A stretch of DNA of 64,000 nucleotides, taken from an uncultured Candidatus Poseidoniales archaeon (lineage in GTDB: Archaea; Thermoplasmatota; Poseidoniia; Poseidoniales; Thalassarchaeaceae). A program made the translations under genes and the position numbers. This document shows, one piece after another, positions 34,348 through 62,512 of this stretch. The notes below the pieces were generated by a model. The model worked only from the letters and a program-made list of their open reading frames with translations, was not told where the DNA came from and made no database searches. How positions within the stretch are numbered: position 1 is the stretch's first letter; each line of letters begins with the position of its first letter. The DNA is taken from assembly GCA_902511005.1 (NCBI GenBank), contig CABXDN010000004.1, positions 28,404-92,403 on the forward strand. The letters are read 5' to 3'.

Positions 34348-34525
34348 ATTACTCTCGATGGGGGGGCTCTGAATGAATCTTCGCTTATTTTTCCGGTTAA
34401 CGGCCTAAAATAAGAGGTCTATTTTTCGCTCTGCTGCGCTCTTGTCCTCCTCAATGTTCATAGACGGAAATGCGGCAGCCAACTAATGATGTCGGCGAGA
34501 AATTGCTGATATTATATGGTGATGG

Positions 34526-37500
34526 GATGCATCTAGTAAGAATTGAACTTGAAAATTTCAAATCATTTGGTGGACAAATAATTATACCATTTGAGGAGGG
34601 ATTCACTGCAATAACAGGCCCTAATGGTTCAGGGAAGTCTAATTGTGGAGATGCTATACAATTTGTTTTAGGGCCTAAATCTACTCGTTCTCTTCGTGCA
34701 TCTAATGTTTCAGAATTAATATTCAACGGTGGAGGCGGAGGGAAAGCTGCTCGAAATATGTCTGCAACGCTTGTTTTTGAAAACTCGCCCGAATCTGATG
34801 GTCGCCGTAGATTAAGAATTGATACCGAAGAAGTTTCATTTACGCGTTCAGTCAGATTAAACCGTAAAAACGATACGATTTCATCATATTACATCAATGG
34901 TAATCCTTCTACTGCCACTGAAATGAGGAGAGTTTTGGCTGAAGCAGGCCTACATGGCGATGGTTACAACATTGTATTGCAAGGAGATGTCACGAATCTG
35001 GCCTCTATGACTCCTCACAAAAGGAGAGGAGTCCTTGAAGAAGTAGCTGGGGTGACTGCTTATGACGATGAAATACGTCGTGCTAATAATCAACGTAAGG
35101 TAGTCGAAAACAATATTGAAACTATCGATTTATTTGAAGAAGAACAAAAAACAAGGCTAAAAGGTTTGGAAAAAGAGCGCCAACAGGCATTGAAATTTAA
35201 AGATCTGAAAGATGAATTAGATTTGAACAAGGTAGTCCTTCAACAATCTAGGCACCGTAATAGATTAGATGAGGTCAGACTTTTGGGCGAGGAGCGTTCA
35301 AGTTATTCTGAACAAATCACTGGCCTCACAGAGAATATAAGGGCTGGGAATCAAAATCTAGGCAACTTCGATGAAGAACTTGTACAAATTGGAAATGATT
35401 TAGATGATATAATGAGCGGAGACGCGAGAGAATTACTAGATACTATTCGTCAACATGAAATTGATATCGAAACTAATTCTGACAGAGTAGGCGATCAATT
35501 GAAAATTATCGAATCTACTGAAGAAGATATTGAAATTATTCGAGAAGATTATGAAAGCGCAGAGAATGCAAGGGAGTCTGGTCAAGAAGAGTTGAATCAA
35601 GCCAAGGAATCTTTATTGAAAGCAGACTCTGATCTTATTCAGGCTGCTTCTGACGAGAAACAAGCAAGGGAGGCAATCCAGTCAGGAGATAGACATGGTC
35701 GTGATTTAAATCGTGCACTTGGTCAAGCAACCGACTTAGTTGCAGAAAAGCATCAAGAGTATTCTATTGCTAGATTAGAATCAGATAGGGCGGAGCAAAC
35801 TGCTCAAATTTCCTCCGAAAAACTAGCAGATTTGGAAGAAGAATACGAACAAGCGACACTTAATAGAGATGATTTAACATTAGTCGGAGAAGAGATTCAA
35901 GGTGGTGGAGGACAGGTAGACCGAACTGCTTTGGCGAATGAATTACAAAGATTAACTAAGCAAGAAATTGGATTGCGTGAAGATCGAGATCGCTCTGAAG
36001 TTAAGGCTAGAGATGCAGAAGTTGAATTGGCAAAGGCCAGAGCAAGACAAGAAGCCAAAGCAAATAGGCCAGGGTCGGCTATAACTATAGCTGCTCTAAC
36101 AAAATTAAGGCAGAGCGGAGAGATTAAGGGCATTCTTGGCACATTAGGTGAGTTATGTTCTCCAAAAGATGCAGCGCATGAAGATGCATTAGCATTAGCG
36201 CTAGGGAATGGTTTGAGGAGCATAGTAGTCACTAATGACGAAGTTGCAGCCGAGTGTATCAAGTGGCTTCGACTTAATGTTGGAGGGCGTGCAACATTCT
36301 TACCTCTAAATAAATTGAATGTATCTAGGCCACAAGGAAGGACATTAATTGTCGCTAGAAATCAGGGAGTCCTTGGTTTTGCTCATGATTTACTAGATTA
36401 TGACTTAGAAGTCGATATTGCAGTTAGATATGCCTCTAGAAATACCCTGATTGTACAATCAATGGATGTGGCACGAAAGAATATGGGCGGTGTCCGCATG
36501 GTTACACTGAAAGGAGATATCATCGAAGGTTCAGGTGCAATGACTGGAGGTTCTCCTGCAGGCTCTTCAAGGCCGCGTTTCGGGGGGGGCAGTCCGGGGC
36601 AACTAGGTTCTGAGAGGCTTGAGAGATCAGTTGAAGAAGCGAATCTAATTTATTCAACTGTTGAAGCAGCATTAAGAGAATTACGTACTAATCAACAGAA
36701 ATTACGTGATCAAATCCATGGTCTAGACGATAGTGATCAATCGGTTAAGATACGTGAGTGGAAATCTGATCTTTCACGTGCGCAGAAAGATGTTGATGAG
36801 ATAGGTAAAAAGATTATATCTGCTAGAGATGAATTCTCACGTGTTGATAAATTATTCATTTCATCTAAGGAAGCGGCCGATAAAGCGAATCTGGATCATG
36901 AAGAATCGCTCAAATCAAGATCTGACGCCGCTACTGCACTTCAAAATCATACACCCGATCATCTTTCAGAAATATTAAGGAACGCAGAAAAAACAAGGAC
37001 AGATGCTGAAAGGACGAAGATTGTATCCGATGCTGCAATTCTTAATGGGACTGAAAGAATGGATATTCTTTCGAATAGGTTGTCTGAACTTTCCAGACAA
37101 ATAAACAATAAAGAAAAATTAATTTCTGACGCTAGGGAGGCAATAGTTTCTCTGCAAGAATCTATAACTAATTCTCAAGAGTTATTGGTGGACTTAAAGG
37201 GACAATCTTCACAATTTGATGAAGAACAGCAAATTCTAACCCAACGTCGAGAAATAATTATTGAAGAGAGAGCGAGTTTAAGGGCTACTCTAGATTCACA
37301 TTCTCAGAAACGTGAAACATTAACCTCAAGGATTGAAGAATTGAATATTCAAATCCAACAAAAAAGAGCGGCAGTGAATGAAATTGTCGCAGAATTAGCA
37401 GATGCGGAAATCGACGTACCATCTGCTGACATCCAATTACCCACTGTGGCCGAGGCGGAAAGAGTAGTGCAGGGACTCGAACGTCGCCTCGGTCATCTAG

Positions 37501-38459
37501 GTGATGTCAATATGTTAGCTATAGAGCAATACGACATTGCAGTCGAACGTGTAGCTGGGCTAATAGAAGATGGAAAAATACTCCGGCAAAGGCGTGACGA
37601 CCTTGTAGGTATTGCAGATAGACTTGAATCTGAGAGGAAAAAGAGGCTTCTCCTAGTATTTGAACACGTAAATAGAAATTTCAGTCGTGTGTATGCGCAG
37701 TTACAACCCGGTGGAATAGGTAGTCTTCGGTTAGAGAATCTAAAGAATCCATTTGACGGAGGTCTTGAGATGGACTGCGTACCTCCTGGTAAGAATAGTA
37801 AAACTCGTAGAAATTTATTATCAGGTGGTGAAAAATCGATGGCTGCTCTAGCCCTAATATTCGCGATACAAGATTACGAGCCAAGTCCATTCTATTATTT
37901 CGATGAGGTTGATCAAAATTTAGATCCATTTAATTCTGAATTAATTGCTGCACTTTGTTTAATGCGTTCACAAAGGGCGCAATTCATCATGGTCACATTA
38001 AGAAAAGTCAGTTTGAATCTCGCTAATCACCATATCGGTATCACCCATGCAGGTGATGGATGTAGTCGCCGAATAACTGATTTCGATCGTGCTGCTGCGC
38101 TACAGATGAGTGAAGAGATGGAAAAAGAAGAAGCCGCTCGAAAACAGTCAGAAACTGAACGTTCAGAATTAGTATTACCTGATCCTGAAAAGATGCCACG
38201 AGTCCCTGAGCCTCTTGGGACTCCTAAGTCATTAGGGGGTCTGGCGGAAAGGGCAGGTTTAGATATTGATGAATCCGAGGTAGATGAGATAGGTGAAGAA
38301 TCTTCAAAAACTGGGGATTTAATCGCATTAAGGGAAAGAACTGAAGATTGGACTGAAGATATTGAGGAAGCTGATATAATTCAAAATGCATTGGTCGATG
38401 AAGAAAATCTCAAGAATAGTAATGACGAGGTTACTTCACCTGAAGTAGAAATTGAGTGA
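34526..38459 (+). CDS. smc: Chromosome segregation protein SMC, with a roughly 140-aa acidic C-terminal extension.
   Basis: N-terminal Walker A head MHLVRIELENFKSFGG...ITGPNGSGKSN. Long coiled coils and a hinge region are present. The C-terminal head carries the signature LSGGEKSMAALALIFAIQDYEPSPFYYFDEVDQNLD. Start is the ATG at 34526, downstream of the track start. Confidence 0.9.
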
Positions 38460-38467
38460 GGTGAATT

Positions 38468-39475
38468 ATGTCCGTTTTCGATGGTAACTCTATGAAAGAT
38501 GACATAGTTTCAAGATTACTTGGCGGAGAAGCAGATCTTGAAACTAATCGTTATCTTGATAGACTGGTTGAATTATCTCTTGTTGAAGAAGCAGAACATC
38601 AGTTCTTGATAGATCCCTTCGATAGGTCTGTAGCATTAGTATTCCAAATGTTCCATAATACTGATCTTGACCCATGGGACGTTGACCTTTCTGTTTTTCT
38701 AGAATTATTCAATCAAAGAATTAACGAATCAGAAAATATAGATTTACCAACATGCGGTAGATTAGTTAGGATGGCCTGGTCAATTCTCCGTGGCCAAGCC
38801 AGTTCACTTCTTGAAAGGCAAGAACGATCTCTTATTGATGAGGAGGTCGAAGAAACGTGGGATTTCGAGGATTCTTGGGAATCTGAATTTTCGGATGAAG
38901 ATTATAATTTCTCAGTAGGTGTCCTTACTGGGGCTGCTAGCGATGTGTTACCTACTATGCTCGAAGGTAGAATACATCGAGAAGAGGGGCGCCCAGTAAC
39001 TCTGGGGGAGTTACTTATGGGGCTCCAAGCAGCAGGTAGACTTTCAGAAGAACAAAAGATGCGAGAAGAAATAGCAAAAGAACGTCGCGAGGCTAATGAA
39101 AAAGCCAGAGCTAGGTTTGGAGGTAGTTTACATGTTGAGAATTTGGAAGACGATTTGAAAAGAACTTGGGATGCATTAAGGAGTCGTACTCTCGAAGAAA
39201 AAGAATCTACGAATCTTAGTGAGATAGTTGAAGTTTTAGAGAAAGGCTCTATTGATTCAGGATTAAGTATTGAAGATGCGAAATCAGAGGCTCAAGTCAC
39301 TGCGTTGATATCGTCTCTTTTTCTAACTCATCGAGGATATGCTGAAGTTTCTCAAGATCTAAATGGCAATATTTCGTTAAAAAATCTTCACCTTCGAGAC
39401 AATGACTTTTCAACTTTAACTAACCGTCTTAATCCTAAAGTAAGGCTTACTGAGAGGGTGATATCCAATGAGTGA
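38468..39475 (+). CDS. scpA: Segregation and condensation protein A (kleisin).
   Basis: It lies immediately downstream of smc. DLDPWDVDLSVFLELF matches the ScpA N-terminal motif. The middle is acidic, and the gene overlaps scpB by 8 nt. Confidence 0.8.
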   Translation: MSVFDGNSMKDDIVSRLLGGEADLETNRYLDRLVELSLVEEAEHQFLIDPFDRSVALVFQMFHNTDLDPWDVDLSVFLELFNQRINESENIDLPTCGRLVRMAWSILRGQASSLLERQERSLIDEEVEETWDFEDSWESEFSDEDYNFSVGVLTGAASDVLPTMLEGRIHREEGRPVTLGELLMGLQAAGRLSEEQKMREEIAKERREANEKARARFGGSLHVENLEDDLKRTWDALRSRTLEEKESTNLSEIVEVLEKGSIDSGLSIEDAKSEAQVTALISSLFLTHRGYAEVSQDLNGNISLKNLHLRDNDFSTLTNRLNPKVRLTERVISNE

Positions 39476-40088
39476 TGCTAGTCTTTCAATTATTCTTGAG
39501 GCGATAATGTTCACTTCAGGTCGTTCTATGTCTACAGATGAGTTATCAAAAATTGTAGATAAAACCAGTGTAGATGTAAATACTGCCCTATCTGAATTAC
39601 AAGCAAGAATTAAACGAAGACAAGATTCTGCTTTGCAATTAACTGAAGTTTCTGGCCGTTGGATATTTGAGGTTCGCCCCAGTCTTTCGCCTCATTTACC
39701 GGAATCATTCCGCCCTGACACTCCACAAAGACTCCTTCCTGCCGCTGCCTTAATCGCCTACCACCAGCCAATGGCCCAATCTCAATTGGTAGAGATGCTT
39801 GGACAAAGAGCTTACGACCACGTAAGAGAATTAGCAAACCTAGGGCTTATCGATAGGCGTAGGGATGGCCTAACGCGTCGTCTAACTACAACTAGGAGGT
39901 TTGCAGAATATTTTGGTTGCCCAGAAGTAGACTATCGCGCTGTTCGTTCATGGTTCCGTTCTGAAGCCACCAAAGCGGGCCTGACTAGTGCTCAACTTGC
40001 TGCTTCCCTTGCACCTGATGAACAAATGTCTATTTCAGAGTTTATTGAAGAAGAAAATAATTCCAATTCTACAGTATCTGAGAATTAG
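39468..40088 (+). CDS. scpB: Segregation and condensation protein B.
   Basis: LSIILEAIMFTSGRSMSTDELSKIV is a typical ScpB N-terminus (LEAxLFxSGEPxSxxEL). The size fits two winged-helix domains. Confidence 0.8.
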   Translation: MSDASLSIILEAIMFTSGRSMSTDELSKIVDKTSVDVNTALSELQARIKRRQDSALQLTEVSGRWIFEVRPSLSPHLPESFRPDTPQRLLPAAALIAYHQPMAQSQLVEMLGQRAYDHVRELANLGLIDRRRDGLTRRLTTTRRFAEYFGCPEVDYRAVRSWFRSEATKAGLTSAQLAASLAPDEQMSISEFIEEENNSNSTVSEN

Positions 40089-40089
40089 A

Positions 40090-41382
40090 TTAATCTCCTC
40101 TAATCTTTAATAGTGCTGCTTCAACAGTTGCCATAGTTATTCTTTCACCACTTTCTTTGACCATATTAGCAACTAAATCAATTTCTTCATCCTTTGCACC
40201 CGCCGAACTTATCATATTCTTTAGATGTAATTTCATATGTCCTGCCTGTATTCCTACGGTGGCTAATGCTCTGAGTGCACCTAAATTTTGCGCCATCCCT
40301 GCTGCTGCCATTACTTTAGCCAAATCATTAGCGCTCTTTATCCCTAAAAGCGCTACATTTGCCTGAGCTCCAGGGTGTATTCTTACCGCTCCGCCTACAA
40401 GTCCTACAGCCATTGGGCATTCGATAGATCCAACTAAATTACCATCTGAATCCTTTTCCCAATGTGTCATTGAGGTATATTGTTTTTCATGTGCACAATA
40501 TGAATGAGCGCCTGATTCTATTGCACGCCAATCTTGTCCACATGCGATTGCTATAGGGGAAATAGCATTCATTATACCTTTGTTGTGAGTAGTTGCTCTA
40601 AACGGATCTGCAGCTGCAAAATGATATGCTTGTAATACTCCTTCAATTACTTCTGAACCTTGACTTGCTTCTCCTTTGTCTGACATTTCTTCAGGGGTAA
40701 AAGTTGCACTAACTCTAGCTAACCGGTGTATTGCCAAATTACTAATAATTCTCAAGATAACCGTTCCTTTCGATAATGATTCTATCTTAGGTGCAATAGT
40801 TTCAGCCATTGTATTTACTGCATTTGCTCCCATTGCATCTCTACAATCTACAAGGATATGGACAATAACCATTGGTCCAGACATGGTTTCTATTATTCTC
40901 ACTTCAACATCTTTACAACCACCTCCGAACTTTACTAAAATTGGATCGACATCATTACACGACTGAATCAGTTCGTCTTTTGCTGCAAGAATCAGATCTC
41001 TTGATTCTTCTGGATTTTCGCATCCAACGATTTGTATTTGGCCAATCATTATCGGGTCAGTATTATCTGATCTAAACCCGCCTTTAGCCTGGCATCTCTT
41101 TGCCATGTTAGATGCTGCAGCCACTACGCTCGCTTCTTCTACTACGAACGGAACTAGATAGTGTTCATCATCTATGATAAAATTCGTTGCTACTCCTATG
41201 GGTAGGGAATATCTTCCAACGACATTTTCAATCATCCTGTCTGCAGTGTCTTCTGATAATTCCGCATCTGCCCAAGCGTTAGTCTGTTCTTCAGTCAAAC
41301 CAGCTATATCTGCTAATTTCTGTCTTCTTTCAGGCACTGATAGTTTGTAAAACCCTTTCAATCGACTGTTATCTACTGGCAT
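40090..41382 (-). CDS. hmgA: Hydroxymethylglutaryl-CoA reductase, class II.
   Basis: 430 aa. ENVVGRYSLPIGVATNF matches the class II ENVIG / PxGVAxNF motifs. DAMGANAVNTMAE is also present. The size is class II. Confidence 0.9.
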   Translation of the reverse strand: MPVDNSRLKGFYKLSVPERRQKLADIAGLTEEQTNAWADAELSEDTADRMIENVVGRYSLPIGVATNFIIDDEHYLVPFVVEEASVVAAASNMAKRCQAKGGFRSDNTDPIMIGQIQIVGCENPEESRDLILAAKDELIQSCNDVDPILVKFGGGCKDVEVRIIETMSGPMVIVHILVDCRDAMGANAVNTMAETIAPKIESLSKGTVILRIISNLAIHRLARVSATFTPEEMSDKGEASQGSEVIEGVLQAYHFAAADPFRATTHNKGIMNAISPIAIACGQDWRAIESGAHSYCAHEKQYTSMTHWEKDSDGNLVGSIECPMAVGLVGGAVRIHPGAQANVALLGIKSANDLAKVMAAAGMAQNLGALRALATVGIQAGHMKLHLKNMISSAGAKDEEIDLVANMVKESGERITMATVEAALLKIRGD

Positions 41383-41554
41383 GTTTCCACCATTCTTTGG
41401 CAGAGCATACTACTTGTAATCTCTTTGCTTTATTCTAGTCTAATCGACTCTTTTATCCGGTTGAGAGTTAAGGGGCAGTATTGTTCATTTTTATTGAATA
41501 TTATTTACTTAATGTCTAATGAAAATCAAATTTTCTTATATTTCGAATGAATTA

Positions 41555-41720
41555 AAGCGTTAATAATGTTGTTAACGGGTTGTTAACGTGTCTAAAAAGC
41601 GTTAATAAAGCGTTAATAATTAATGGAATTAAATGCTTTATTAGTTTATTTTCGTATTTTTTATTCCGAATCTGATTTTTAATACGTTAATTTAGATGAA
41701 AATAAGCGTAATAATGCGTG
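41555..41720. repeat. Array of short direct and inverted repeats with a CGTTAA / GTTAAC core, next to an extremely AT-rich tract. It is a candidate origin or operator array.
   Basis: AAAGCGTTAATAA occurs at 41555-41567 and 41597-41608. AGCGTTAATAA is at 41609-41619. A degenerate AAGCGTAATAA is at 41704-41714 and ACGTTAAT at 41684-41691. Tandem GTTGTTAACG lies at 41568-41577 and 41579-41588. Upstream, 41470-41550 is about 80% A+T. Confidence 0.6.
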
Positions 41721-41753
41721 AACATTATGAACTAGTAGTATCTCACGTTGAAT

Positions 41754-43706
41754 ATGTCTGCCGCAGGGGTTAGTATGCTAGACTTACCTTCCGTAAGGGG
41801 CAATCCCTTCGACAACAGACCTATTGAAGCATCTCGTGCTCACGATCTAGTCGGAAGGCAAAAAATACTTCACCGATGGAGAGACCATATTCTCTCAGGC
41901 TCACCCAGAATGATATTGCTAGTTGGGGAACCAGGTTCAGGTCGCACATCAATGATTAACACCATATCTTCTCAAACACCAAAGAAATATATTGGTCAGT
42001 TTTTGTCAGATGACGACGACCAAGTCCGTACAGTATTACATGAAATCGTAACTCACTTTGGTTCATTCCAGCCAATACCTACAATGAATCAATTATCCCA
42101 AAAGTTAGTTTCTATTCTTGATGAAGAAAAGGGTCCGTTGCCTCTTATTGCATTAGACTATCCTTCTCGGGCAACCGACATCAATATTTTTCTTTCAAGA
42201 ATTTCTCCGATACTATCTAGATTAAGGGCCATGATTATAGTGACTATTACTGAATCTCAACTCCTAGAACTCGACTTAGAACTCAAAGAAATGTTTGATG
42301 AACCAGAGAGGATACCTAATTTTACTAAAAAAGAGATTCAAGAAATGGTAAATAACAGAATGAGAATTAAATCCAAAGAGAAATGGAATATTAATTCTAA
42401 AATCCTTGAATCAATTCACTCCAGCACTGGAGGAAATCCTCGCGAAGTAATCAAGATATTGAAATGCTTAGTTGACGAGAAAAGAGAGCTGGGTTATGAT
42501 GGGACTTTAGAGAACTTAATGGCATGGCAAAATCAAACACCGCCTAGTGCCGAATCAACAGTGATTAGTCCACCCTCTACTACAGAGGAAAATAAAGTAG
42601 AAATAACTCCGATTATTAATTTTGAAACAAATAAAATAGATGAGTTGATCGAAGATGATGATGATTTTATCGTTGATGAAGAACCTTTAGATATGTGGGA
42701 TGAGGATGATGATAATGATGATGATGAAGACCCGATTTGGTCCGAAAGTTTCTCATTCGAAGATAATATCGAGAGTCCTGCAGAAGATACAAACATTATT
42801 GATGTTAATCTTCATCATAGAATTTCAGAACTTGAAGAAGAGGAGAATGTGGACTCCATTCCCTCAACAGAACCCCTAATCCCTAAAATAAATTCTGAAC
42901 CTATCTTGGAGACCGAATTATTTATGCAACCGGGTACTGAACCACCTAAAAGTTCAATTTCTGGGGGTGCATTTGGTGGTTTGCGTGCACGTCTCGCAAA
43001 GACATCTTCTGATATGATTGAAAATGAGATTAGTGATGTTCCAATAACTTATGCAGACACACCTCAATCTCAACCGACCTTAGATCGATTCGTAGATAGT
43101 CATAAACTAGTCCAAGATAAAAAAACTATTGCCGAATTACCGAATTACTCTAATGCCTCTTTCGATAGTAATGTCGAACCCAGCAATTATGACCGAGTAA
43201 TGAGTGATGAAGGTGCCGAATGGTCGGTAGCACCTCCTTTCTCATCTACTTTACCTGAATCCTCATTTGAATCTGATGTGATCCCCTCAAATTCTGATTC
43301 TGAACATAAGGATCCAATCCAGTCAGAAGCAACTTTTTTTGAAGAGTTCAATGAGCCCGAAGAAATAATTCAGCCGGTCCCAGCAAATTCTCACGAATTA
43401 TCTTCTATCCCAACTGATAAATTAATTCCTAATTTCTCAAATTTTGAACCAAGATGGGACCCCGACCGCCCTTTGGATACTGCGCGTTTTTATTTATTAT
43501 CGGATGCTGAAAGATTAATTTTACAAATATCATCAATAAGAGAAATATCTCCCTCTGATGATGAATTACAAGCCCGATTAGAAGTAGGTAGGCCACGTTT
43601 ATCCCAACTTTACAATAGTTTACATAAATCAGGCCTACTATCAGTAAGAAAACAAGGTCGAACACGTTTATTCAAATTAAGCAATGCTGCTGCTGAAGAA
43701 TTTTGA
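41754..43706 (+). CDS. Divergent Orc1/Cdc6-like AAA+ protein with degenerate Walker motifs, a long acidic disordered insert and a C-terminal winged helix.
   Basis: The N-terminus LVGRQKILHRWRDHILSGSPRMILLVGEPGSGRTSMI follows the Orc1/AAA_16 pattern. The Walker A Lys is replaced by Arg (GSGRTS). The Walker B position reads LIALDY, so DE has become DY. A sensor-2-like TGGNPREVIKILKCL is present. Residues about 260-560 are Asp/Glu/Ser/Pro-rich low complexity (DDDDFIVDEEPLDMWDEDDDNDDDEDP). The C-terminus LSQLYNSLHKSGLLSVRKQGRTRLFKL is wH-like. Confidence 0.55.
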   Translation: MSAAGVSMLDLPSVRGNPFDNRPIEASRAHDLVGRQKILHRWRDHILSGSPRMILLVGEPGSGRTSMINTISSQTPKKYIGQFLSDDDDQVRTVLHEIVTHFGSFQPIPTMNQLSQKLVSILDEEKGPLPLIALDYPSRATDINIFLSRISPILSRLRAMIIVTITESQLLELDLELKEMFDEPERIPNFTKKEIQEMVNNRMRIKSKEKWNINSKILESIHSSTGGNPREVIKILKCLVDEKRELGYDGTLENLMAWQNQTPPSAESTVISPPSTTEENKVEITPIINFETNKIDELIEDDDDFIVDEEPLDMWDEDDDNDDDEDPIWSESFSFEDNIESPAEDTNIIDVNLHHRISELEEEENVDSIPSTEPLIPKINSEPILETELFMQPGTEPPKSSISGGAFGGLRARLAKTSSDMIENEISDVPITYADTPQSQPTLDRFVDSHKLVQDKKTIAELPNYSNASFDSNVEPSNYDRVMSDEGAEWSVAPPFSSTLPESSFESDVIPSNSDSEHKDPIQSEATFFEEFNEPEEIIQPVPANSHELSSIPTDKLIPNFSNFEPRWDPDRPLDTARFYLLSDAERLILQISSIREISPSDDELQARLEVGRPRLSQLYNSLHKSGLLSVRKQGRTRLFKLSNAAAEEF

Positions 43707-46206: not shown

Positions 46207-47412
46207 TCATCTTTGTAGATCCATCTCAATCCTAGTAGCAAGATTTGCAGGCGCTACATTGTTCATTGTTATGTACTGCGTTCTTCCTCTTCCAATGTTT
46301 GATTTATCGTTTCTTGTCTCAATTAATCCCTCATTTTGGAGTAATTTTAGATGTTTCCAGAATGTAGTATGGCTCTTAGGTTTCGATTCATATTCTTCAC
46401 ATACTAAGTGATATAATTTCTCTGCATCTCCTGTATTTATTTCTGATTCCTTCTTCAATCTTCTACATAAGCCGAGCATAATTAATTTTTGATCTTTAGA
46501 AAGGCCGTCTACTTGACTCGGTTCTATAGAAGCTGTTCTCACTGAACTTTGTTCGATATCGCTGATTAAGACTTCTCCTCTACCTGCAGACTCTGCTTTT
46601 CTAATTGCAGAATCAAGTAATTCTATTGCTAATCTTGCATCGCCTGAATCGCTTGCCATAGTTCCAATTTTTTCAAGAATTTCTTCACTTATTGACCCAC
46701 TTCTACAGGCAATGTCGGCTCTTTGTCTTGTAATTTCAATGAGTCCTTTCTTGTTATATGGCCTTAGTTGTAAGATATTACTAGCCCCTAATCTAGAGAT
46801 TATCGCTGGCTCAAATAATTTTAGTAACATTGAATCCTGACTTACTAGAATTAGTGATAATGAACCTTGTCTTTCTTGACTCTCATCTATCCGTAAGAGT
46901 TTGTATATTAAATCGAAATTATCCCTTCTAACCAACGCGTCTACCTCATCTAATACGAGTAAAAGATGATTATTATGAGTTCTTAGATTTCTTCGTATCG
47001 ATTGGATTATTTCACCCGAACTTAATCCTCTTTCTGGATGCCCAGAATCTAGAGATATCGCTATTTGTTGTAAAACCTGAGACGTAGAGGGGTTATTTCT
47101 GCAGTTAACATGCGAATAAGAAATTTTTCTTTTACCTTCTAAATGCTTTAACAAATCCTGTCCAAAGCGCCTACTCAGAACCGTTTTACCAGATCCAACA
47201 GGGCCCGTAATCACTGCTCTACAACTTGAATTATGATTCTCTATATGGGAAAACATACTTGCGAGTTCACTTAATTCTTTATCTCTACCTACTAGATTAT
47301 TAGGTGTCCAATCAAACGAAATCGGTTCTCTATTGATTAGGATTTTACCCGCGCCTATCCGGTCGAGGTATCCTGACATTAATTTGCTATTTATTCGGTC
47401 GTTCTTAGACAT
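46207..47412 (-). CDS. orc1: Orc1/Cdc6 replication initiator, canonical.
   Basis: Walker A GPVGSGKT, Walker B LLLVLDEVDAL, sensor 2 ARLAIELLDSAIRKA and a C-terminal winged helix. 401 aa. Confidence 0.9.
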   Translation of the reverse strand: MSKNDRINSKLMSGYLDRIGAGKILINREPISFDWTPNNLVGRDKELSELASMFSHIENHNSSCRAVITGPVGSGKTVLSRRFGQDLLKHLEGKRKISYSHVNCRNNPSTSQVLQQIAISLDSGHPERGLSSGEIIQSIRRNLRTHNNHLLLVLDEVDALVRRDNFDLIYKLLRIDESQERQGSLSLILVSQDSMLLKLFEPAIISRLGASNILQLRPYNKKGLIEITRQRADIACRSGSISEEILEKIGTMASDSGDARLAIELLDSAIRKAESAGRGEVLISDIEQSSVRTASIEPSQVDGLSKDQKLIMLGLCRRLKKESEINTGDAEKLYHLVCEEYESKPKSHTTFWKHLKLLQNEGLIETRNDKSNIGRGRTQYITMNNVAPANLATRIEMDLQR

Positions 47413-50889: not shown

Positions 50890-53586
50890 ATGTCGAAGAG
50901 ATCAATGTTAGATCAATTTGCTGAAATCAAGGCTCAGCACCCCGATACGGTCTTATTTTTTAGAATGGGAGATTTTTATGAAATGTTTCATGAAGATGCA
51001 GTTGTTGCATCAGAAGTTCTCGGAATAACATTAACTAGTCGTGATAAAAATTCCGATAACCCTGTTGCGATGGCAGGTGTTCCATGGCATTCAGTCGAGT
51101 CTTATCTTCAGTCAATGCTACGCGCAGGTTACAAAGTTACTATGTGTGAACAGGAAGAAGAGTTACGTCCGGGTTCTAAGATTCTTGAAAGAGTAGTTAC
51201 CAGAGTTTACACTCCTGGTTCATTATATGAGGAGAACCTTATTGGAGAAGACGGCTCGAGTATTTTAGCTGCAATTTCAGTTAAGGATGACAAAATTGGA
51301 CTAGCAATACTCGATTCTTCAACAGGCCGTTCTTGGGTTCAAGAGCAATCAGGTGCGGGACGATGGGAGAGGATTAAAGATGAAATCCAACGTTGGTCAC
51401 CTAGTGAATTAGTTGTATCTAAAAAAGATGCTTTATCAGATGTTATACTATCATTAGTTTCCGATCTAGATAATATACTAATGAGTATTCATGATGCTAA
51501 CGCTGAGCAAAGGCTACAATCAGTTCGTGAACATCTGCAAATTTCTGATCTTGGGAGTGTTGATTTAGATTCTAAACCATTGGCACTTCAGGCCTGTGGA
51601 CTTGCGGCAGGATATATCGCCCATTTACATCTAATTGACACTGTTCCTCTCAGAGAAGTACATTTTGATGCAGACGATGGCCACCTTGTTCTAGATCAGA
51701 CCACTTTAAGAAATTTGGAATTAAGCCATACTCTGATAGGTGAGAAGCAAGGTTCACTAATTCAATGCATAGATTCGACAAGAACTTGGATGGGCAGAAG
51801 ACTACTAAAAGAGTGGATAATGAGGCCTCTAACAAATAAAGAAATTATTGCATCAAGGCATTTAGCCGTCAGAAGTTTATTCAAGGCTCCAAGGAGGTTA
51901 GACTCAATACGAGAGAATCTTAAATCGATGCGAGATTTAGAGCGTTTATCTACTCGACTGGCTTATGGTAGAGCGAATGCAAGAGATTTAGTTGCAGTTT
52001 CTGAATGCTTAGAAAGAATGCCCAAATTACAGACATTACTGACTGAAGGTAACTCTGAACTCCTTCATAGTTCCTCTTTAGGTTTGAATAATTTAGATTC
52101 AATAAGAGAACTTATCTGCAGTAAAATTGTTGATGAACCTCCCGCATCGATAAGAGATGGTGGTATTTTCCGATATGGTGTCGATAAACAACTTGATGAT
52201 CTAAGAAGTAAAGCAAGTGAAGGTACCAGTTGGCTGAAAGAATTTGAGTCTAAAGAGAGAGAAAAACTTGATATCCCGAATCTTAAAATAAAGCATAATA
52301 GGCAATTTGGCTTTTTTATCGAGATTACTAAATCACACGTAGGTAAGGTTCCGGATAATTACAGACGACGACAAACAATGACTAATGCAGAAAGATATAC
52401 TACTGATGAGTTAGTAGGCTGGGAAGAGATAATACTCACTGCTGACGATAGGGCAAAGGCTCTTGAAAAAGAGCTTTTCATTAATCTCAGAAATAGCGTA
52501 GCCAATCATTCATCCGAATTAGCAACAATAGCAAGGCAAATAGCTACAACTGATGTAATATCTTCCTTTGCAATTCATGCTAGAAAAAACTCTTGGTGTA
52601 AACCAGAAATAACGGATGAGAGCAAGATAGAGATTATTTCTGGTCGTCATCCCGTATTAGAAGCAGATGGAAGATTTGTCCCAAATGATGTCAAGTTAGA
52701 TGAAAAGAGGAGTTTCTTATTACTGACTGGTCCAAATATGGGTGGTAAATCTACTTATCTTCGGCAAACTGCACTGATATCAATTTTAGCTCAAGCCGGA
52801 TCTTATGTGCCTGCTGAAAAAGCTAAGATTGGATTAATAGATCGTGTTTTCACAAGAGTTGGTGCTCATGATGATCTACGCCGAGGCCGTTCAACGTTTA
52901 TGATGGAGATGATTGAAGTAGCTCATATATTGCGCCGTGCCACTGATAAAAGTCTGATTTTACTAGATGAAATCGGTCGAGGGACTTCAACCTTTGATGG
53001 TTTAGCCATAGCTTGGTCCGTTACTGAAGATATCTGTAAAAGGTTAGGTTCTAGAACTCTTTTCGCCACACATTATCATCAACTAATTGGATTAGAAGCT
53101 GAATTTAAAAATTTAGCAAATATTCATGTCCAAGTAGCAGATGTCAATGGAGAAATACGCTTTCTTCACACAATTTCAGAAGGTTCTTGCGATGACTCCT
53201 ATGGGGTTCAGGTAGCAGCATTAGCAGGTTTACCAATTTCAGTGGTTGAGAGGGCTAGAGATTTACTTATATTTCTTGAAAGTCAGGCTCAAGGCGCCAA
53301 AGCAGGTTCTTCCAATTCGCCAGATTCAAGACCAAATGGTCAATCCAGTATTTACGGTTGGATGTTAAACTCTGCGAATCAAAATGAATTAATTCCTAAT
53401 GAATCGAAACCATTAGTTTTAGATGTAAAAGAAGAAATAATTATTGATCCTGTGCTCAAAGAAATTTCAGCACGTCTTCGCTCTTTAGATCCGGATAATC
53501 TAAGTCCTAGAGAGTCTCAAGAGGTTTTGTATGCTATGATTGATTCACTTGAAAAATCTAGATTTTCTGATTTATTGGAGGAATAA
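50890..53586 (+). CDS. mutS: DNA mismatch repair protein MutS, bacterial MutS1 type.
   Basis: Mismatch-binding N-terminus LFFRMGDFYEMFHEDA, Walker A GPNMGGKST, DEIGRGTST and a helix-turn-helix C-terminus. 898 aa. Confidence 0.95.
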   Translation: MSKRSMLDQFAEIKAQHPDTVLFFRMGDFYEMFHEDAVVASEVLGITLTSRDKNSDNPVAMAGVPWHSVESYLQSMLRAGYKVTMCEQEEELRPGSKILERVVTRVYTPGSLYEENLIGEDGSSILAAISVKDDKIGLAILDSSTGRSWVQEQSGAGRWERIKDEIQRWSPSELVVSKKDALSDVILSLVSDLDNILMSIHDANAEQRLQSVREHLQISDLGSVDLDSKPLALQACGLAAGYIAHLHLIDTVPLREVHFDADDGHLVLDQTTLRNLELSHTLIGEKQGSLIQCIDSTRTWMGRRLLKEWIMRPLTNKEIIASRHLAVRSLFKAPRRLDSIRENLKSMRDLERLSTRLAYGRANARDLVAVSECLERMPKLQTLLTEGNSELLHSSSLGLNNLDSIRELICSKIVDEPPASIRDGGIFRYGVDKQLDDLRSKASEGTSWLKEFESKEREKLDIPNLKIKHNRQFGFFIEITKSHVGKVPDNYRRRQTMTNAERYTTDELVGWEEIILTADDRAKALEKELFINLRNSVANHSSELATIARQIATTDVISSFAIHARKNSWCKPEITDESKIEIISGRHPVLEADGRFVPNDVKLDEKRSFLLLTGPNMGGKSTYLRQTALISILAQAGSYVPAEKAKIGLIDRVFTRVGAHDDLRRGRSTFMMEMIEVAHILRRATDKSLILLDEIGRGTSTFDGLAIAWSVTEDICKRLGSRTLFATHYHQLIGLEAEFKNLANIHVQVADVNGEIRFLHTISEGSCDDSYGVQVAALAGLPISVVERARDLLIFLESQAQGAKAGSSNSPDSRPNGQSSIYGWMLNSANQNELIPNESKPLVLDVKEEIIIDPVLKEISARLRSLDPDNLSPRESQEVLYAMIDSLEKSRFSDLLEE

Positions 53587-53587
53587 T

Positions 53588-55534
53588 ATGTCATCTAATT
53601 CTCGGCAGTCAATCATCCAACTTGATGAGTTAACTATTGATTTAATCGCCGCAGGAGAAGTAGTGGAAAGGCCTGCTCAAGTGGTAAAGGAACTAGTTGA
53701 AAATTCTATAGACTCAGGTAGCAGCCAAATAAGAATTGAGATTGAAAAAGGTGGATTTGATAGAATATCTGTTATTGATAATGGGCATGGAATACCTAGA
53801 GAAGAATTGAAACTAGCGATTAAAAGACATGCCACAAGTAAACTTTCAGTACCTGAAGATCTTAATCGAATCGTTACTAAAGGTTTTAGAGGCGAAGCAT
53901 TAGCATCAATTGCTGCAGTTAGTGAGTTGATATTATCAAGTAAAGTTAAAGATTCAGATGGGTTTTCTATCTTAGTAGATAATGGAGTTGTTGGAAAAAT
54001 TGAGCCAGTTGGTATAGCTCCAGGTACAAAGGTAGATGTCCTTAATTTGTTTAAAAAAATCCCTGCACGTTTATCTTTTCAAAGAAGGCCTTCAACTGAG
54101 AATGCAGCAATTGTAGATATAGCAATCTCTTTGGCCTTGAGTGAACCGAAAACAGGAATAATAGTGGAATTAGACGGAAGAAAAGTACTAGATTGTCCTC
54201 CTTGCGAAGGTATGGAAGACCGATTATACGATCTCTTTGGTTCGACATCGTCCAAATTAATTTCACTAGAATTTTCAGATGATGATAGAGATGCGCCGGG
54301 TGATGAAGTTTGGAGTGGATGGATATCTCCACCCGGAATATCACGTTCACGTTCAGATGATATTCACGTTCTCGTCAATGGACGTCCAGTTAGCACAGGG
54401 CCATTTCTTCAATCAATAAGAAGAGGCTATCATACTAGACTAATGGTGGGGCGCCATCCTATTGGCGTAATATCTCTTAATTTACCTCCAAGCGAGGTAG
54501 ACGTAAATGTTCATCCTACAAAACGTGAAGTTAGATTGCAATATTCTTGGAGAGTTTTGGAGAGATTAGAGCGGTCTATTCAATATACTCTCAGTAAAGT
54601 TTCAACACAACCTGAATCTAAGAATTTAACATTACTTGAAGGATTGGAAGTTAAGCCAGATAATGTCCAAAATTCGGATATATTTGTTCCATCATGGGCT
54701 CAAGTAGAAAATAAAGAAACTATACAGACTCACTTTAGTAGCATTCGAGGAGCAATGCCATCGAGTGAAAGATTAGGAAATAAAATCTCATCAAATGAAT
54801 TAGAACAAGAAACATTGCCAGGTCTGAACCCTAATCCGATATCTCCCTCATTATCTTCTGCAGAGCGTTCGTTACACCGACTTTCTATCTCAGGAGATTC
54901 AATTTCTCCAATAGACGAACCGACACCTAAAGCAGCAATAATACCAGAGTTGCCCGAAATGGAAGTATTATGTCAGTTTTCTAATTCATATATATTGGCT
55001 GAAGGTAATAATGAATTATTTATCATTGATCAACATGCTCTTCATGAAAGAATCAGATATGAGCGATTGCGTCCTTCTATGGTTGACTGGGATCCTCAAA
55101 AATTAATCATATCAGTCCCAATATCATTGGGGGTAAGGGAATTAGCCGCTGCTCGTTCTGAGTCTAAAAGACTCTTACAATTGGGTTTTGAATTTTCTGA
55201 ATCTGACGAAGGAATTGTGGTTACTTCGGTCCCAAATGTACTTGTTGGAGATAGTGGATTAATTGAATTTTTACATGACATTCTGATTGATATATCATCT
55301 AATCCAGAATCAGGAGGGATAGATACAGTTGAAAAATTACGAGATAAAGTTGCTTTTATGAAGTCCTGTAGAGGTTCAGTTAAAGCAAATCAGAAACTGA
55401 ATCTTTCAGAAATGAGACGTCTTTTAATGGATATGCGTACAGTTCCAAATCCATGGGCATGTGTTCATGGAAGACCTACTATTCTCAAGTTGACTCAAAA
55501 TCACCTGGACAAGCATTTTGGACGTCATGGTTGA
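53588..55534 (+). CDS. mutL: DNA mismatch repair protein MutL.
   Basis: GHKL ATPase N-terminus IDLIAAGEVVERPAQVVKELVENSIDSG and DNGHGI. The C-terminal dimerisation domain carries an endonuclease-type DQHALHERIRYE motif. GGAGG lies upstream of the ATG. Confidence 0.95.
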   Translation: MSSNSRQSIIQLDELTIDLIAAGEVVERPAQVVKELVENSIDSGSSQIRIEIEKGGFDRISVIDNGHGIPREELKLAIKRHATSKLSVPEDLNRIVTKGFRGEALASIAAVSELILSSKVKDSDGFSILVDNGVVGKIEPVGIAPGTKVDVLNLFKKIPARLSFQRRPSTENAAIVDIAISLALSEPKTGIIVELDGRKVLDCPPCEGMEDRLYDLFGSTSSKLISLEFSDDDRDAPGDEVWSGWISPPGISRSRSDDIHVLVNGRPVSTGPFLQSIRRGYHTRLMVGRHPIGVISLNLPPSEVDVNVHPTKREVRLQYSWRVLERLERSIQYTLSKVSTQPESKNLTLLEGLEVKPDNVQNSDIFVPSWAQVENKETIQTHFSSIRGAMPSSERLGNKISSNELEQETLPGLNPNPISPSLSSAERSLHRLSISGDSISPIDEPTPKAAIIPELPEMEVLCQFSNSYILAEGNNELFIIDQHALHERIRYERLRPSMVDWDPQKLIISVPISLGVRELAAARSESKRLLQLGFEFSESDEGIVVTSVPNVLVGDSGLIEFLHDILIDISSNPESGGIDTVEKLRDKVAFMKSCRGSVKANQKLNLSEMRRLLMDMRTVPNPWACVHGRPTILKLTQNHLDKHFGRHG

Positions 55535-57787: not shown

Positions 57788-62512
<4,725 letters not shown>

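What the first reader, a model, noticed from the sequence alone, without database searches (positions are those of the whole stretch)
41383..41753. Origin-like intergenic region: AT-rich unwinding-element candidate flanked by an array of CGTTAA/GTTAAC-core repeats
The 365-bp divergent region between hmgA and the Orc1-like gene is about 75-80% A+T. It contains a roughly 80-bp tract of near-pure A/T (41470-41550) and then at least six copies of an 11-13-nt repeat (AAAGCGTTAATAA, twice exact, plus close variants) with two tandem GTTGTTAACG units. All are built on the palindromic GTTAAC core and lie within about 170 bp. Archaeal replication origins characteristically lie beside orc1/cdc6 genes and consist of a duplex unwinding element flanked by repeated initiator-binding boxes. 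This region has that architecture, but its repeats do not resemble the canonical ORB or mini-ORB sequences. It could be a non-canonical origin or an operator array for the adjacent wH-containing protein. A canonical orc1 lies only 4.5 kb away with almost no flanking intergenic DNA of its own.
Basis: partly seen in the sequence, partly recalled or inferred. Interest (0 to 1): 0.75.

Follow-up and report, generated by a model that had tools for sequence, protein, structure and literature searches.

The report
Conserved GCGTTAA box array, marine archaea
The repeats are real: eight evenly phased GCGTTAA boxes sit at almost fixed positions in front of one lineage-specific DNA-binding ATPase-like gene in every Marine Group II archaeon examined, so they are most likely that protein's own docking and control site, not the chromosome's main replication origin.

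Summary
The window comes from a Poseidoniales (Marine Group II) archaeon. The 371-bp hmgA/650-aa-gene intergenic region holds eight GCGTTAA-type boxes (41557-41722). All five CGTTAAYAA matches in the 64-kb window lie here. The same array lies upstream of the orthologous gene in about 78 genomes of 37-63% GC. Inner spacing is invariant (14/11/17/11 bp), an AT-rich 72-78-bp spacer follows, and the last box abuts a TATA-like element about 30 bp before the ATG. When another gene is inserted next to hmgA, the array stays with the 650-aa gene.

That gene is not an Orc1/Cdc6 family member. It encodes a narrow-family AAA+ domain closest to clamp loaders, with Walker A K→R and no Walker B glutamate, then an acidic disordered linker and an ArsR-like winged helix.

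No canonical ORB occurs in the window. Strand asymmetry at four-fold degenerate sites keeps one polarity from 1 to about 73.5 kb, with no reversal at the array or at orc1.

Best reading: a fixed-geometry, self-regulating nucleoprotein site bound by the adjacent protein. A minor or dormant origin, or a chromosome-organising site, is not excluded.

The parts
40090..41382 (-). hmgA (HMG-CoA reductase), the divergent upstream neighbour
   Evidence: PF00368, E = 5.5e-104. It is the upstream neighbour in all related loci that extend far enough. Its distance to the array varies between genomes.
41383..41753 (.). Whole intergenic region: 371 bp, 28% GC. It is the largest and most AT-rich intergenic region in the window.
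   Evidence: Other intergenic regions of the window are 37-52% GC.
41470..41550 (.). It is not conserved in relatives.
   Evidence: The equivalent segment is only 5-12 GC points below the locus average in relatives, and its length varies.
41557..41563 (+). Box 1, GCGTTAA (ATG -197)
   Evidence: Present at the same position in 63 of 64 parsed loci, 14 bp before box 2.
41572..41578 (-). Box 2, TTAACGG on the + strand (reads CCGTTAA on the - strand)
   Evidence: The box 2 to box 3 distance is 11 bp in 64 of 64 loci.
41583..41589 (-). Box 3, TTAACGT on the + strand (reads ACGTTAA on the - strand)
   Evidence: Boxes 2-3 and 4-5 form a dyad-symmetric four-box unit, two boxes pointing left and two pointing right.
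41599..41605 (+). Box 4, GCGTTAA
   Evidence: The box 3 to box 4 distance is 17 bp in 64 of 64 loci.
41610..41616 (+). Box 5, GCGTTAA
   Evidence: The box 4 to box 5 distance is 11 bp in 64 of 64 loci.
41617..41683 (.). Spacer between box 5 and box 6. Its sequence varies, its length is constrained, and it is the most AT-rich segment (19% GC here).
   Evidence: The box 5 to box 6 distance is 72-78 bp, mode 77-78. Spacer GC is 18.5, 32 and 43.5% against locus GC of 38, 49 and 57% in three GC classes. No conserved RNA structure and no Rfam hit.
41684..41690 (+). Box 6, ACGTTAA (ATG -70)
41706..41712 (+). Box 7, degenerate GCGTAAT (family consensus GCGTrAg)
   Evidence: Consensus from 68 sequences.
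41716..41722 (+). Box 8, GCGTGAA, at the expected BRE position
   Evidence: Box 6 to box 8 is 32 bp in 53 of 64 loci. Box 8 to ATG is 36-38 bp in the 53 of 64 parsed loci whose alignment starts at the ATG. The box is nearly invariant.
41724..41729 (+). ATTATG (family consensus ATTAWG), a putative TATA element about 30 bp before the ATG. This implies a leaderless or near-leaderless mRNA.
   Evidence: Conserved columns. No Shine-Dalgarno-like sequence precedes the ATG, unlike many other genes of the window. The promoter assignment is an inference.
41754..43706 (+). 650-aa gene: degenerate AAA+ domain (residues ~26-260), acidic disordered linker (263-565; 24% D+E), winged helix (~576-649)
   Evidence: The family comprises only 207 clusters among 1.84 billion representatives. 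Sources name it ArsR-family/wHTH regulator or hypothetical protein.
46207..47412 (-). Canonical orc1/cdc6, 4.5 kb away, with 46-bp and 54-bp flanking gaps
   Evidence: TIGR02928 at 218 bits (cut-off 181), plus Cdc6_lid and Cdc6_C. The linkage is conserved in related loci at 4.2-7.6 kb.
34470..40088 (+). SMC, a ScpA-position ORF and ScpB, an operon pointing towards the array
   Evidence: TIGR02169 at 726 bits (just below its 729.4-bit cut-off) and PF04079. Conserved here in most but not all lineages.

Best explanation
The region is the cognate binding-site array of the protein encoded immediately downstream. That protein is specific to Poseidoniales. It has a catalytically degenerate AAA+ domain, a long acidic disordered linker and a C-terminal winged helix.

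Proposed mechanism, all inferred:
- The winged helix reads the asymmetric heptamer GCGTTAA.
- Four boxes arranged with two-fold symmetry (boxes 2-5), plus box 1, form a high-affinity nucleation cluster.
- Three further boxes lie 7 and 10 helical turns downstream on the same face of the DNA, and the last occupies the BRE position next to the TATA-like element.
- Oligomerisation through the AAA+ domain bridges or wraps the AT-rich, fixed-length spacer. This builds one rigid nucleoprotein complex over the gene's own promoter and sets the protein's level by autoregulation.

Shown: the existence, exclusivity, geometry and deep conservation of the array; its linkage to this gene; the domain make-up of the protein; and the absence of a replication-polarity switch. 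Inferred: that this protein is the binder, the promoter assignment, and the looping or wrapping.
For: - Exclusivity. All 5 CGTTAAYAA matches in 64 kb are here. In 80 related loci GCGTTAA occurs at 9.45 per kb in the upstream 450 nt against 0.019 per kb elsewhere. Of 120 metagenome hits to the box 2-3-4 pattern, 96 are linked to the gene. Of these, 88 lie at the expected 100-260 nt, 6 lie 87 nt upstream of the aligned start, and 2 sit at stretch ends with hmgA alongside. The other 24 look like chance matches or unrelated repeats.
- Geometry. Spacings of 14/11/17/11 bp are invariant in 63-64 of 64 loci. The spacer is 72-78 bp, box 6 to box 8 is 32 bp, and box 8 to ATG is 36-38 bp where the alignment starts at the ATG. 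This holds across genomes of 37-63% GC.
- Linkage to the gene, not to hmgA. The distance to hmgA varies. Distant family members keep TTAACG/CGTTAA boxes. With ahpC inserted, the boxes lie between ahpC and the gene.
- The winged helix is the most conserved part of the protein, with a run of about 40 nearly invariant residues at 40-85% overall identity. It is ArsR/MarR-like.
- Box 8 abuts a conserved ATTAWG about 30 bp before an ATG that lacks a Shine-Dalgarno sequence.
- The four-fold-site strand asymmetry does not change sign. The strand term is -0.168 left of the array and -0.092 right of it. A constant-polarity model gives RSS 64, a switch at 41.5 kb gives 155, and the null gives 179. The 10-kb extension to the right gives -0.14.
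Against: - No binding data exist, so another factor, including Orc1, could read the boxes.
- Eight phased boxes with a constrained AT-rich spacer are more than simple autoregulation usually needs, and they resemble initiator or partition complexes.
- This intergenic region is exceptionally AT-rich for this genome and always lies within 4-8 kb of orc1, which itself has no room for an origin.
- No canonical ORB was found that would place the origin elsewhere.
- The strand-term amplitude may drop from -0.17 to -0.09 at 41-44 kb (unadjusted p = 0.013-0.018). That would fit a minority-use origin, although the extension at -0.14 argues it is noise.
- Genome-wide target sites could not be surveyed.
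Confidence: 0.55

Rival explanations
1. The array is a non-canonical replication origin, main, secondary or dormant. The boxes act as initiator sites for the adjacent AAA+/winged-helix protein and/or for Orc1, and the AT-rich spacer between box 5 and box 6 is the unwinding element. The promoter-proximal boxes double as an autoregulatory site, as at many orc1-linked origins and at dnaA.
For: - A gene for an AAA+ plus winged-helix protein lies beside an array of oriented boxes that flank the most AT-rich, length-constrained segment.
- It is the largest and most AT-rich intergenic region of the window.
- Linkage to orc1 at 4-8 kb is conserved, and orc1 has only 46-bp and 54-bp flanks.
- No canonical ORB occurs in 64 kb or in 84 related loci.
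- The predicted AAA+ fold has two helices between strands beta-2 and beta-3, reminiscent of the initiator-specific motif.
- The skew amplitude may step at 41-44 kb.
Against: - The four-fold-site strand asymmetry does not reverse from 1 to 73.5 kb. Both sides are significantly negative.
- Related loci also show no sign flip (weak evidence, because the same genes are compared).
- The SMC operon and the eIF2-gamma/S6e/orc1 cluster both point towards the site, which would be head-on to forks leaving it.
- The boxes flanking the spacer are direct repeats, not inverted.
- The protein is not an Orc1/Cdc6 member and lacks the Walker A lysine and the Walker B glutamate.
- The spacer is only 43.5% GC in GC-rich lineages.
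Confidence: 0.15
2. The array is a chromosome-organising landmark, either centromere-like or an SMC-loading site. The pseudo-ATPase polymerises on the phased boxes and recruits partners through the conserved short motifs of its acidic linker. It would be a functional analogue of ParB-parS placed next to smc-scpAB.
For: - The array appears to be a single, unique, deeply conserved multi-box site per genome.
- It lies next to SMC, a ScpA-position ORF and ScpB in most lineages, including distant family members.
- The long disordered linker carries several invariant short motifs, which suggests partner binding.
- A non-hydrolysing AAA+ domain suits a scaffold role.
Against: - Several lineages lack smc-scpAB at this locus but keep the array and the gene.
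- hmgA always lies between them.
- No ParA-like or other partition ATPase is nearby.
- There is no direct evidence for any interaction.
- The precise register with the gene's own start codon is explained more simply by promoter control.
Confidence: 0.12
3. The array is an operator for a different, unlinked transcription factor that co-regulates the divergent pair hmgA (isoprenoid lipid synthesis) and the 650-aa gene. The adjacent protein would not be the binder.
For: - The array lies in a divergent promoter region shared with hmgA in nearly all genomes.
- No experiment ties the boxes to the adjacent protein.
Against: - The array keeps register with the 650-aa gene, not with hmgA.
- It stays with that gene when ahpC separates the two.
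- The box sequence and the protein's recognition helix (RxRLSQ) are co-conserved even in the most distant family members.
- The boxes are absent from other promoters in ~75 kb of this genome.
Confidence: 0.08

Closest known systems
Archaeal Orc1/Cdc6-ORB replication origins (for example Sulfolobus oriC1, Pyrococcus oriC; ORB consensus CTTCCAGTGGAAACGAAAGGGGT as quoted in PMC4153887)
   Same: A gene for an AAA+ plus C-terminal winged-helix protein lies beside an array of oriented repeats that flank an AT-rich segment. The repeats overlap the gene's own promoter. A canonical orc1 is nearby.
   Different: The box sequence is unrelated to ORB or mini-ORB. The protein is not in the Orc1/Cdc6 family and has degenerate ATPase motifs. 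The boxes flanking the spacer are direct, not inverted. There is no strand-bias polarity switch at the site.
Bacterial DnaA-box clusters (oriC, the dnaA promoter, datA/DARS)
   Same: Short asymmetric boxes in helically phased clusters are read by an AAA+ protein with a separate DNA-binding domain. Such clusters include non-origin ones used for autoregulation or titration. Both box and DNA-binding domain are very highly conserved.
   Different: The domain of life, fold details and box sequence all differ. Here the Walker A lysine is replaced by arginine throughout the family. Only one cluster per genome is known so far.
Iteron-plasmid Rep systems (phased iterons, plus an inverted-repeat operator at the rep promoter)
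   Same: Direct and inverted copies of one short repeat lie next to the gene for a winged-helix binder, with about one helical turn of phasing. The proposed logic is dual: assembly site and autorepression.
   Different: This is a vertically inherited core chromosomal locus in conserved synteny, not a mobile replicon. The protein has an AAA+ domain and a single winged helix, not the tandem winged helices of Rep.
ArsR/SmtB- and MarR-type winged-helix autorepressors
   Different: Those are small dimeric proteins with one or two palindromic operators. Here the protein is 650 aa with an AAA+ domain and a disordered linker, and it faces eight heptamer boxes spread over 166 bp in mixed orientation.
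Clamp-loader (RFC) AAA+ subunits; Sulfolobus Orc1-2 as a precedent for an initiator-type ATPase acting as a transcription factor (own knowledge)
   Same: The best sequence and fold matches of the AAA+ and lid domains are RFC subunits. A Q-x-T-L-D-x-[FY]-V motif in the linker resembles archaeal PCNA-binding boxes.
   Different: All scores are far below family cut-offs. There is no SRC or Walker B DE motif. RFC subunits lack a sequence-specific winged helix.

Membership tests
Archaeal Orc1/Cdc6-dependent origin (oriC with ORB elements) | ORB or mini-ORB repeats (core TTCCAnTGGAAA, with or without a G-string) | tested here: not met
   With up to 2 mismatches there are 28 matches against 33 expected, and none is clustered. 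The extended pattern gives 2 matches against 1 expected. No positional enrichment in 84 related loci. The GCGTTAA box is unrelated in sequence.
Archaeal Orc1/Cdc6-dependent origin (oriC with ORB elements) | Lies immediately beside an orc1/cdc6 gene | tested here: not met
   The adjacent gene is not an Orc1/Cdc6 member. The true orc1 is 4.5 kb away, 4.2-7.6 kb in relatives.
Archaeal Orc1/Cdc6-dependent origin (oriC with ORB elements) | AT-rich unwinding element flanked by inverted initiator sites | tested here: inconclusive
   The spacer between box 5 and box 6 is the most AT-rich segment in all GC classes. However, its flanking boxes are in direct orientation, and it is only 43.5% GC in GC-rich genomes.
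Archaeal Orc1/Cdc6-dependent origin (oriC with ORB elements) | Reversal of replication-associated strand compositional bias at the site | tested here: not met
   The strand term of the four-fold-site AT skew is -0.168 on the left, -0.092 on the right and -0.14 in the extension. The constant-polarity model fits far better than a switch at 41.5 kb.
Archaeal Orc1/Cdc6-dependent origin (oriC with ORB elements) | Initiation activity (marker frequency, autonomous replication, 2D gels) | not testable with these tools
   No read-depth data or whole genome could be accessed.
Orc1/Cdc6 protein family (for the 650-aa gene) | Matches the family models (TIGR02928, PF22703 Cdc6_lid, PF09079 Cdc6_C) | tested here: not met
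   No hit even at E <= 1, whereas the window's true Orc1 hits all three. A family profile finds only 207 clusters among 1.84 billion proteins, so it does not reach Orc1/Cdc6. hhalign against Poseidoniales Orc1 aligns only the Walker A region, at 51% probability.
Orc1/Cdc6 protein family (for the 650-aa gene) | Functional Walker A (GxxGxGKT/S) and Walker B (hhhhDE) | tested here: not met
   The family has invariant G58-x-x-G61-x-G63-R64-T65-S66 and D135-Y136 (H or V in distant members).
Orc1/Cdc6 protein family (for the 650-aa gene) | AAA+ core, lid and C-terminal winged helix in that order | tested here: met
   Predicted structure and secondary structure. The difference is a ~300-residue disordered linker between the lid and the winged helix.
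Orc1/Cdc6 protein family (for the 650-aa gene) | Initiator-specific helical insertion between beta-2 and beta-3 | tested here: inconclusive
   The model has two helices (90-104 and 108-124) between strands 79-81 and 131-135, but pLDDT there is only ~50-70. The fold searches do not rank initiators above clamp loaders.
ArsR/SmtB-type autorepressor with operator | Winged helix-turn-helix of the ArsR/MarR type | tested here: met
ArsR/SmtB-type autorepressor with operator | Binding site overlapping the gene's own core promoter | tested here: inconclusive
   Box 8 abuts a conserved ATTAWG about 30 bp before the ATG. The promoter has not been mapped experimentally.
ArsR/SmtB-type autorepressor with operator | Small dimeric protein with a single imperfect palindromic operator | tested here: not met
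   The protein is 650 aa with an AAA+ domain and a linker. It faces eight heptamer boxes over 166 bp.
Iteron-type Rep/iteron module | Helically phased repeats next to the gene for their binder | tested here: met
   11-bp phasing of boxes 2-3 and 4-5. Same-orientation distances are 42, 11, 72-78 and 32 bp. That the adjacent protein is the binder is inferred.
Iteron-type Rep/iteron module | Resides on a plasmid, virus or integrated element | tested here: not met
   The locus lies in conserved core synteny across the order. There are no homologues in the 120 fetched viral stretches. PHROG and PADLOC give only generic AAA+ hits.
Clamp-loader (RFC) subunit | Reaches the family score cut-offs; Walker B DExx and SRC arginine finger | tested here: not met
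   The best hit, NF003230, scores 22 bits against a cut-off of 441. AAA_lid_RFC1 scores 16 bits against 34.9. There is no DE or SRC motif. RFC subunits are nevertheless the nearest matches.

The most novel reading that the evidence does not exclude
The array and its protein form a previously unrecognised chromosome landmark system, specific to this lineage, in one of the ocean's most abundant archaeal groups. A pseudo-ATPase AAA+/winged-helix protein polymerises on a unique eight-box site beside smc-scpAB and near orc1. The site then serves as an SMC-loading or centromere-like site, or as a secondary or conditionally used replication origin with its own non-Orc1 initiator.
Probability: 0.2. 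Interest if true: 0.85.

Novelty: new variant of a known kind. Interest (0 to 1): 0.55.

Why it matters
Marine Group II archaea are abundant and uncultured, and nothing is known about how they start replication or organise their chromosome. This locus offers a defined and testable protein-DNA pair:
- a seven-base box;
- eight sites with exact geometry, conserved across an order whose genomes range from 37 to 63% GC;
- a single-copy, order-wide protein with an unusual make-up: an AAA+ domain with arginine in place of the P-loop lysine, a motif-rich acidic linker and an invariant winged helix.

If it is only an autoregulated factor, it is still a new protein family with an unusually elaborate control region. 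If it marks an origin or an SMC-loading site, it would be a new solution to a basic chromosome function in archaea.

The skew analysis also suggests that orc1 in this lineage is not next to the dominant origin, which is itself unusual for Euryarchaeota-type genomes.

Tried and rejected
- Canonical ORB or mini-ORB near orc1 or anywhere in the window or related loci: none beyond chance. No other repeat family occurs in the window.
- Structured RNA in the spacer: the RNAalifold consensus is empty. Rfam finds only two tRNAs elsewhere.
- Orc1/Cdc6 homology of the adjacent protein: rejected at the sequence and profile level. The fold searches give a flat AAA+ list with RFC subunits first.
- Selective avoidance of GCGTTAA outside the array: 20 observed against 24 expected under a fifth-order Markov model, so no specific avoidance. 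The 6.5-fold deficit against base composition reflects rare sub-words.
- A step in skew amplitude at the array, as a sign of a minority-use origin: the best step lies at 41.4-44.4 kb with unadjusted p = 0.013-0.018 among about 40 tested positions. The next 10 kb returns to -0.14, so I treat it as noise or gene-specific codon effects.
- Viral contigs: GCGTTAA-N4-GCGTTAA hits are chance matches or unrelated iteron-like arrays, with no homologue of the protein.
- Stand-alone small winged-helix paralogues suggested by the profile search: the one checked, P0178, is a contig-end fragment of the same gene, followed by DUF357. The others were not looked up.
- Defence-system or phage origin of the gene: only generic AAA+ hits.
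- Literature: no paper on Poseidoniales replication origins or on this protein was found.
- Leftward extension of the skew analysis: one look-up found nothing, and the other added only 743 nt.
Full report
**What is there**

The window is archaeal, 39% GC. Homologues and related contigs place it in Poseidoniales (Marine Group II, Thalassarchaeaceae-like).

The finding lies in the 371-bp gap between hmgA (40090-41382, minus strand; PF00368, E = 5.5e-104) and a 650-codon gene whose in-frame ATG is at 41754. The gap is 28% GC. It is both the largest and by far the most AT-rich intergenic region of the window; the others are 37-52% GC.

It holds eight copies of a heptamer:
- GCGTTAA at 41557, 41599 and 41610;
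- its complement at 41572 and 41583;
- ACGTTAA at 41684;
- two degenerate copies, GCGTAAT at 41706 and GCGTGAA at 41716.

The last copy is followed directly by ATTATG, and the ATG comes 30 bp after that.

The motif CGTTAAYAA has five exact matches in 64 kb, all within 62 bp, against 0.83 expected. The needed corrections are that the core is an asymmetric heptamer and not the GTTAAC palindrome, that there are eight boxes and not six, and that the 41470-41550 tract is 78% A+T and not nearly pure.

**Conservation**

A scan of one genome per species recovered 80 loci encoding relatives of the 650-aa protein, all Poseidoniales, with 37-63% GC.

- In the 450 nt upstream of the gene, GCGTTAA occurs 335 times (9.45 per kb). 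In the remaining ~1 Mb of those loci it occurs 20 times (0.019 per kb).
- The boxes align in register across the order.
- Start-to-start distances are 14, 11, 17 and 11 bp between boxes 1 to 5 in 63-64 of 64 parsed loci.
- Box 5 to box 6 is 72-78 bp (mode 77-78). Box 6 to box 8 is 32 bp in 53 of 64 loci. Box 8 to the ATG is 36-38 bp in the 53 of 64 loci whose alignment starts at the ATG.
- Same-orientation distances (42, 11, about 77, 32 bp) are near multiples of a helical turn.
- Boxes 2-3 and 4-5 form a two-fold symmetric unit, two pointing left and two pointing right.
- The spacer between box 5 and box 6 varies in sequence but is the most AT-rich segment in every GC class: 18.5, 32 and 43.5% GC against 38, 49 and 57% for the loci.
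- The spacer has no conserved RNA structure and no Rfam match.

**The array belongs to the downstream gene**

- The distance from the array to hmgA varies, whereas the distance to the downstream ATG is fixed.
- Very distant family members, with profile E-values of 1e-38 to 1e-104, sit in the same synteny and still have TTAACG/CGTTAA boxes upstream.
- In one lineage an ahpC gene has been inserted next to hmgA, and the boxes lie between ahpC and the family gene.
- A metagenome scan for the box 2-3-4 pattern returned 120 stretches. In 88 the pattern lies 100-260 nt upstream of a family gene. In 6 it lies 87 nt upstream of the aligned start. Two are cut at the stretch end with hmgA alongside.
- The other 24 carry only the pattern itself or unrelated repeat arrays in other organisms. 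Chance alone should give about that many such hits for 17 specified bases in that collection.
- I therefore found no second copy of the array elsewhere in these genomes. Single or paired boxes genome-wide could not be surveyed.

**The protein**

The predicted structure has moderate confidence in the folded parts. It shows an AAA+ core and lid (residues ~26-260), a ~300-residue disordered linker (24% Asp+Glu) that carries several invariant short motifs, and a winged helix at 576-649.

The winged helix is the most conserved part. ELQARLEVGRPRLSQLYNSL...SVRKQGRTRLFKLS is nearly invariant among proteins that share only 40-85% identity overall. It resembles ArsR/MarR-type domains.

The P-loop reads GxxGxGRTS, with arginine in place of the lysine, in every family member, including the most distant. 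The Walker B aspartate is followed by Tyr, His or Val and never by Glu. ATP hydrolysis is therefore unlikely.

The protein is not an Orc1/Cdc6 member:
- It gives no hit to TIGR02928, Cdc6_lid or Cdc6_C even at E <= 1, while the window's true Orc1 hits all three.
- A family profile finds only 207 clusters among 1.84 billion representatives.
- hhalign against Poseidoniales Orc1 aligns only the P-loop region, at 51% probability.
- The small winged-helix-only hit that was checked (P0178) is a contig-end fragment of the same gene.

Public sources call the protein hypothetical or an ArsR-family/wHTH regulator.

**Is it an origin?**

For:
- The architecture is an AAA+/winged-helix gene beside oriented boxes that flank an AT-rich, length-constrained spacer.
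- The AT-richness is exceptional for this genome.
- A canonical orc1 always lies 4-8 kb away and has only 46-bp and 54-bp flanks.
- No canonical ORB occurs in the window or in 84 related loci. The ORB consensus is taken from PMC4153887.

Against: At four-fold degenerate third positions, the coding-sense AT skew depends strongly on gene orientation. The strand term is -0.138, which lowers the weighted RSS from 179 to 64. This means the top strand carries T>A at near-neutral sites whichever strand is coding.

- The term is negative in all four segments of the window: -0.17, -0.19, -0.11 and -0.07.
- It is negative on both sides of the array: -0.168 and -0.092.
- It is -0.14 in a further 10 kb fetched to the right from a contig that is 99.8% identical in the overlap.
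- A model with a polarity switch at 41.5 kb fits barely better than no strand effect at all (RSS 155).
- Related loci also show no sign flip across the array, though that is weaker evidence because the same genes are compared.
- The SMC operon and the eIF2-gamma/S6e/orc1 cluster both point towards the site.

An origin that fires in most cell cycles should reverse the bias. This one does not, and neither does any position within 46 kb left or 26 kb right of orc1.

A possible halving of amplitude at 41-44 kb (unadjusted p = 0.013-0.018 among about 40 candidate positions) could mean minority use. The extension argues for noise. A dormant or rarely used origin cannot be excluded.

**Most likely mechanism**

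The boxes are the binding sites of the adjacent protein's winged helix. The symmetric four-box unit plus box 1 nucleates binding. The AAA+ domains join the protomers. The complex then reaches the three promoter-proximal boxes across a bendable AT-rich spacer of fixed length.

Box 8 sits where TFB would contact the BRE, next to the conserved ATTAWG. The ATG has no Shine-Dalgarno sequence before it, unlike many genes of the window, so the mRNA is probably leaderless. Occupancy would then control the gene's own transcription.

The steps shown are the anatomy, the conservation and the linkage. Binding, promoter position and looping are inferred. I put this reading at 0.55, an origin of some kind at 0.15, a chromosome-organising or centromere-like site at 0.12, and an unlinked regulator shared with hmgA at 0.08.

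**Comparison and novelty**

The system works most like initiator-type box clusters (Orc1-ORB, DnaA boxes, Rep iterons), which double as autoregulatory sites. It is not a member of any of those families, because defining features were tested and not met: the ORB sequence, Orc1 family membership, the polarity switch and a mobile context.

I found no description of the array or of the protein family in the searchable literature. I class it as a new variant of a known kind: a cognate protein and box array at its own promoter, with unusual scale, rigidity and protein make-up.

Interest is moderate to high. The origin claim that made the finding attractive is weakened. What remains is a deeply conserved, experimentally tractable protein-DNA system in a major uncultured marine lineage, together with the hint that orc1 is not origin-adjacent there.

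Noticed in passing
window 1-64000 and L205 10871-20870: There is a strong strand asymmetry at four-fold degenerate sites that does not depend on gene orientation. The top strand has T>A (strand term -0.138 +/- 0.014) and weakly C>G. Polarity is uniform over ~73.5 kb. This implies one dominant replication direction across the whole region, orc1 included.
   Followed up: yes
window 41925-41951 and 42144-42164: In the 650-aa protein the Walker A lysine is replaced by arginine (GEPGSGRTS), and the Walker B aspartate is followed by Tyr instead of Glu. Both changes are found in all family members examined, including the most distant.
   Followed up: yes
window 43071-43094: The motif Q-P-T-L-D-R-F-V (residues 440-447) in the disordered linker resembles archaeal PCNA-interacting boxes. 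Q[PS]TLDx[FY][VT] is conserved in 11 of 17 aligned relatives (the closer subclade only). Together with the RFC-like AAA+ matches, it hints at a link to the replisome.
   Followed up: partly
window 42675-43469: The acidic linker carries several invariant short motifs: DEEPxDLWD, ETELFMxPGTEPP, FGGLRxRLAKT, EGAEWxVEP and FxPxWDxD. These sit in otherwise variable, low-confidence sequence and look like partner-binding sites.
   Followed up: no
window 38468-39475: The ORF between smc and scpB, where scpA would be expected, has no Pfam or NCBIfam hit. It may be a divergent kleisin.
   Followed up: no
window 50890-55534 and 57788-62477: Bacterial-type MutS and MutL, and GyrA and GyrB, lie 9-20 kb from the array (domain calls on the near-identical contigs). 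So many DNA-metabolism genes are concentrated in this region: SMC/ScpAB, Orc1, MutSL and gyrase.
   Followed up: no
L203 5214-5678; L201 8193-9266; L202 6640-7686: In distant relatives an ahpC/peroxiredoxin gene is inserted between hmgA and the family gene. In others an extra gene of ~350 aa with no Pfam hit sits between the family gene and DUF357.
   Followed up: partly
L037 (PAQG01000020.1): This contig carries the complete archaeal ScpA-to-Dph2 synteny but is deposited under the title 'Acidimicrobiaceae bacterium'. It is probably mis-binned.
   Followed up: no
L120 ~2003-2055; L166 ~2701; L187 ~1733; L291 ~59; L303 ~10730: Unrelated viral and metagenomic contigs carry their own arrays of GCGTTAA/TTAACG-type repeats, some at 11-bp phasing. 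The viral ones (L120, L166, L187) encode no homologue of the 650-aa protein, and the metagenomic ones (L291, L303) showed no N-terminal match. These look like independent iteron-like elements.
   Followed up: partly
L069, L072-L080 (upstream of position 8001 or equivalent): A divergent subgroup (30-35% protein identity) has a rearranged array: boxes at -199(+), -183(-), -168(+), -157(+), -146(+) and a single proximal box at -39. The box sequence is kept while the layout changes.
   Followed up: partly
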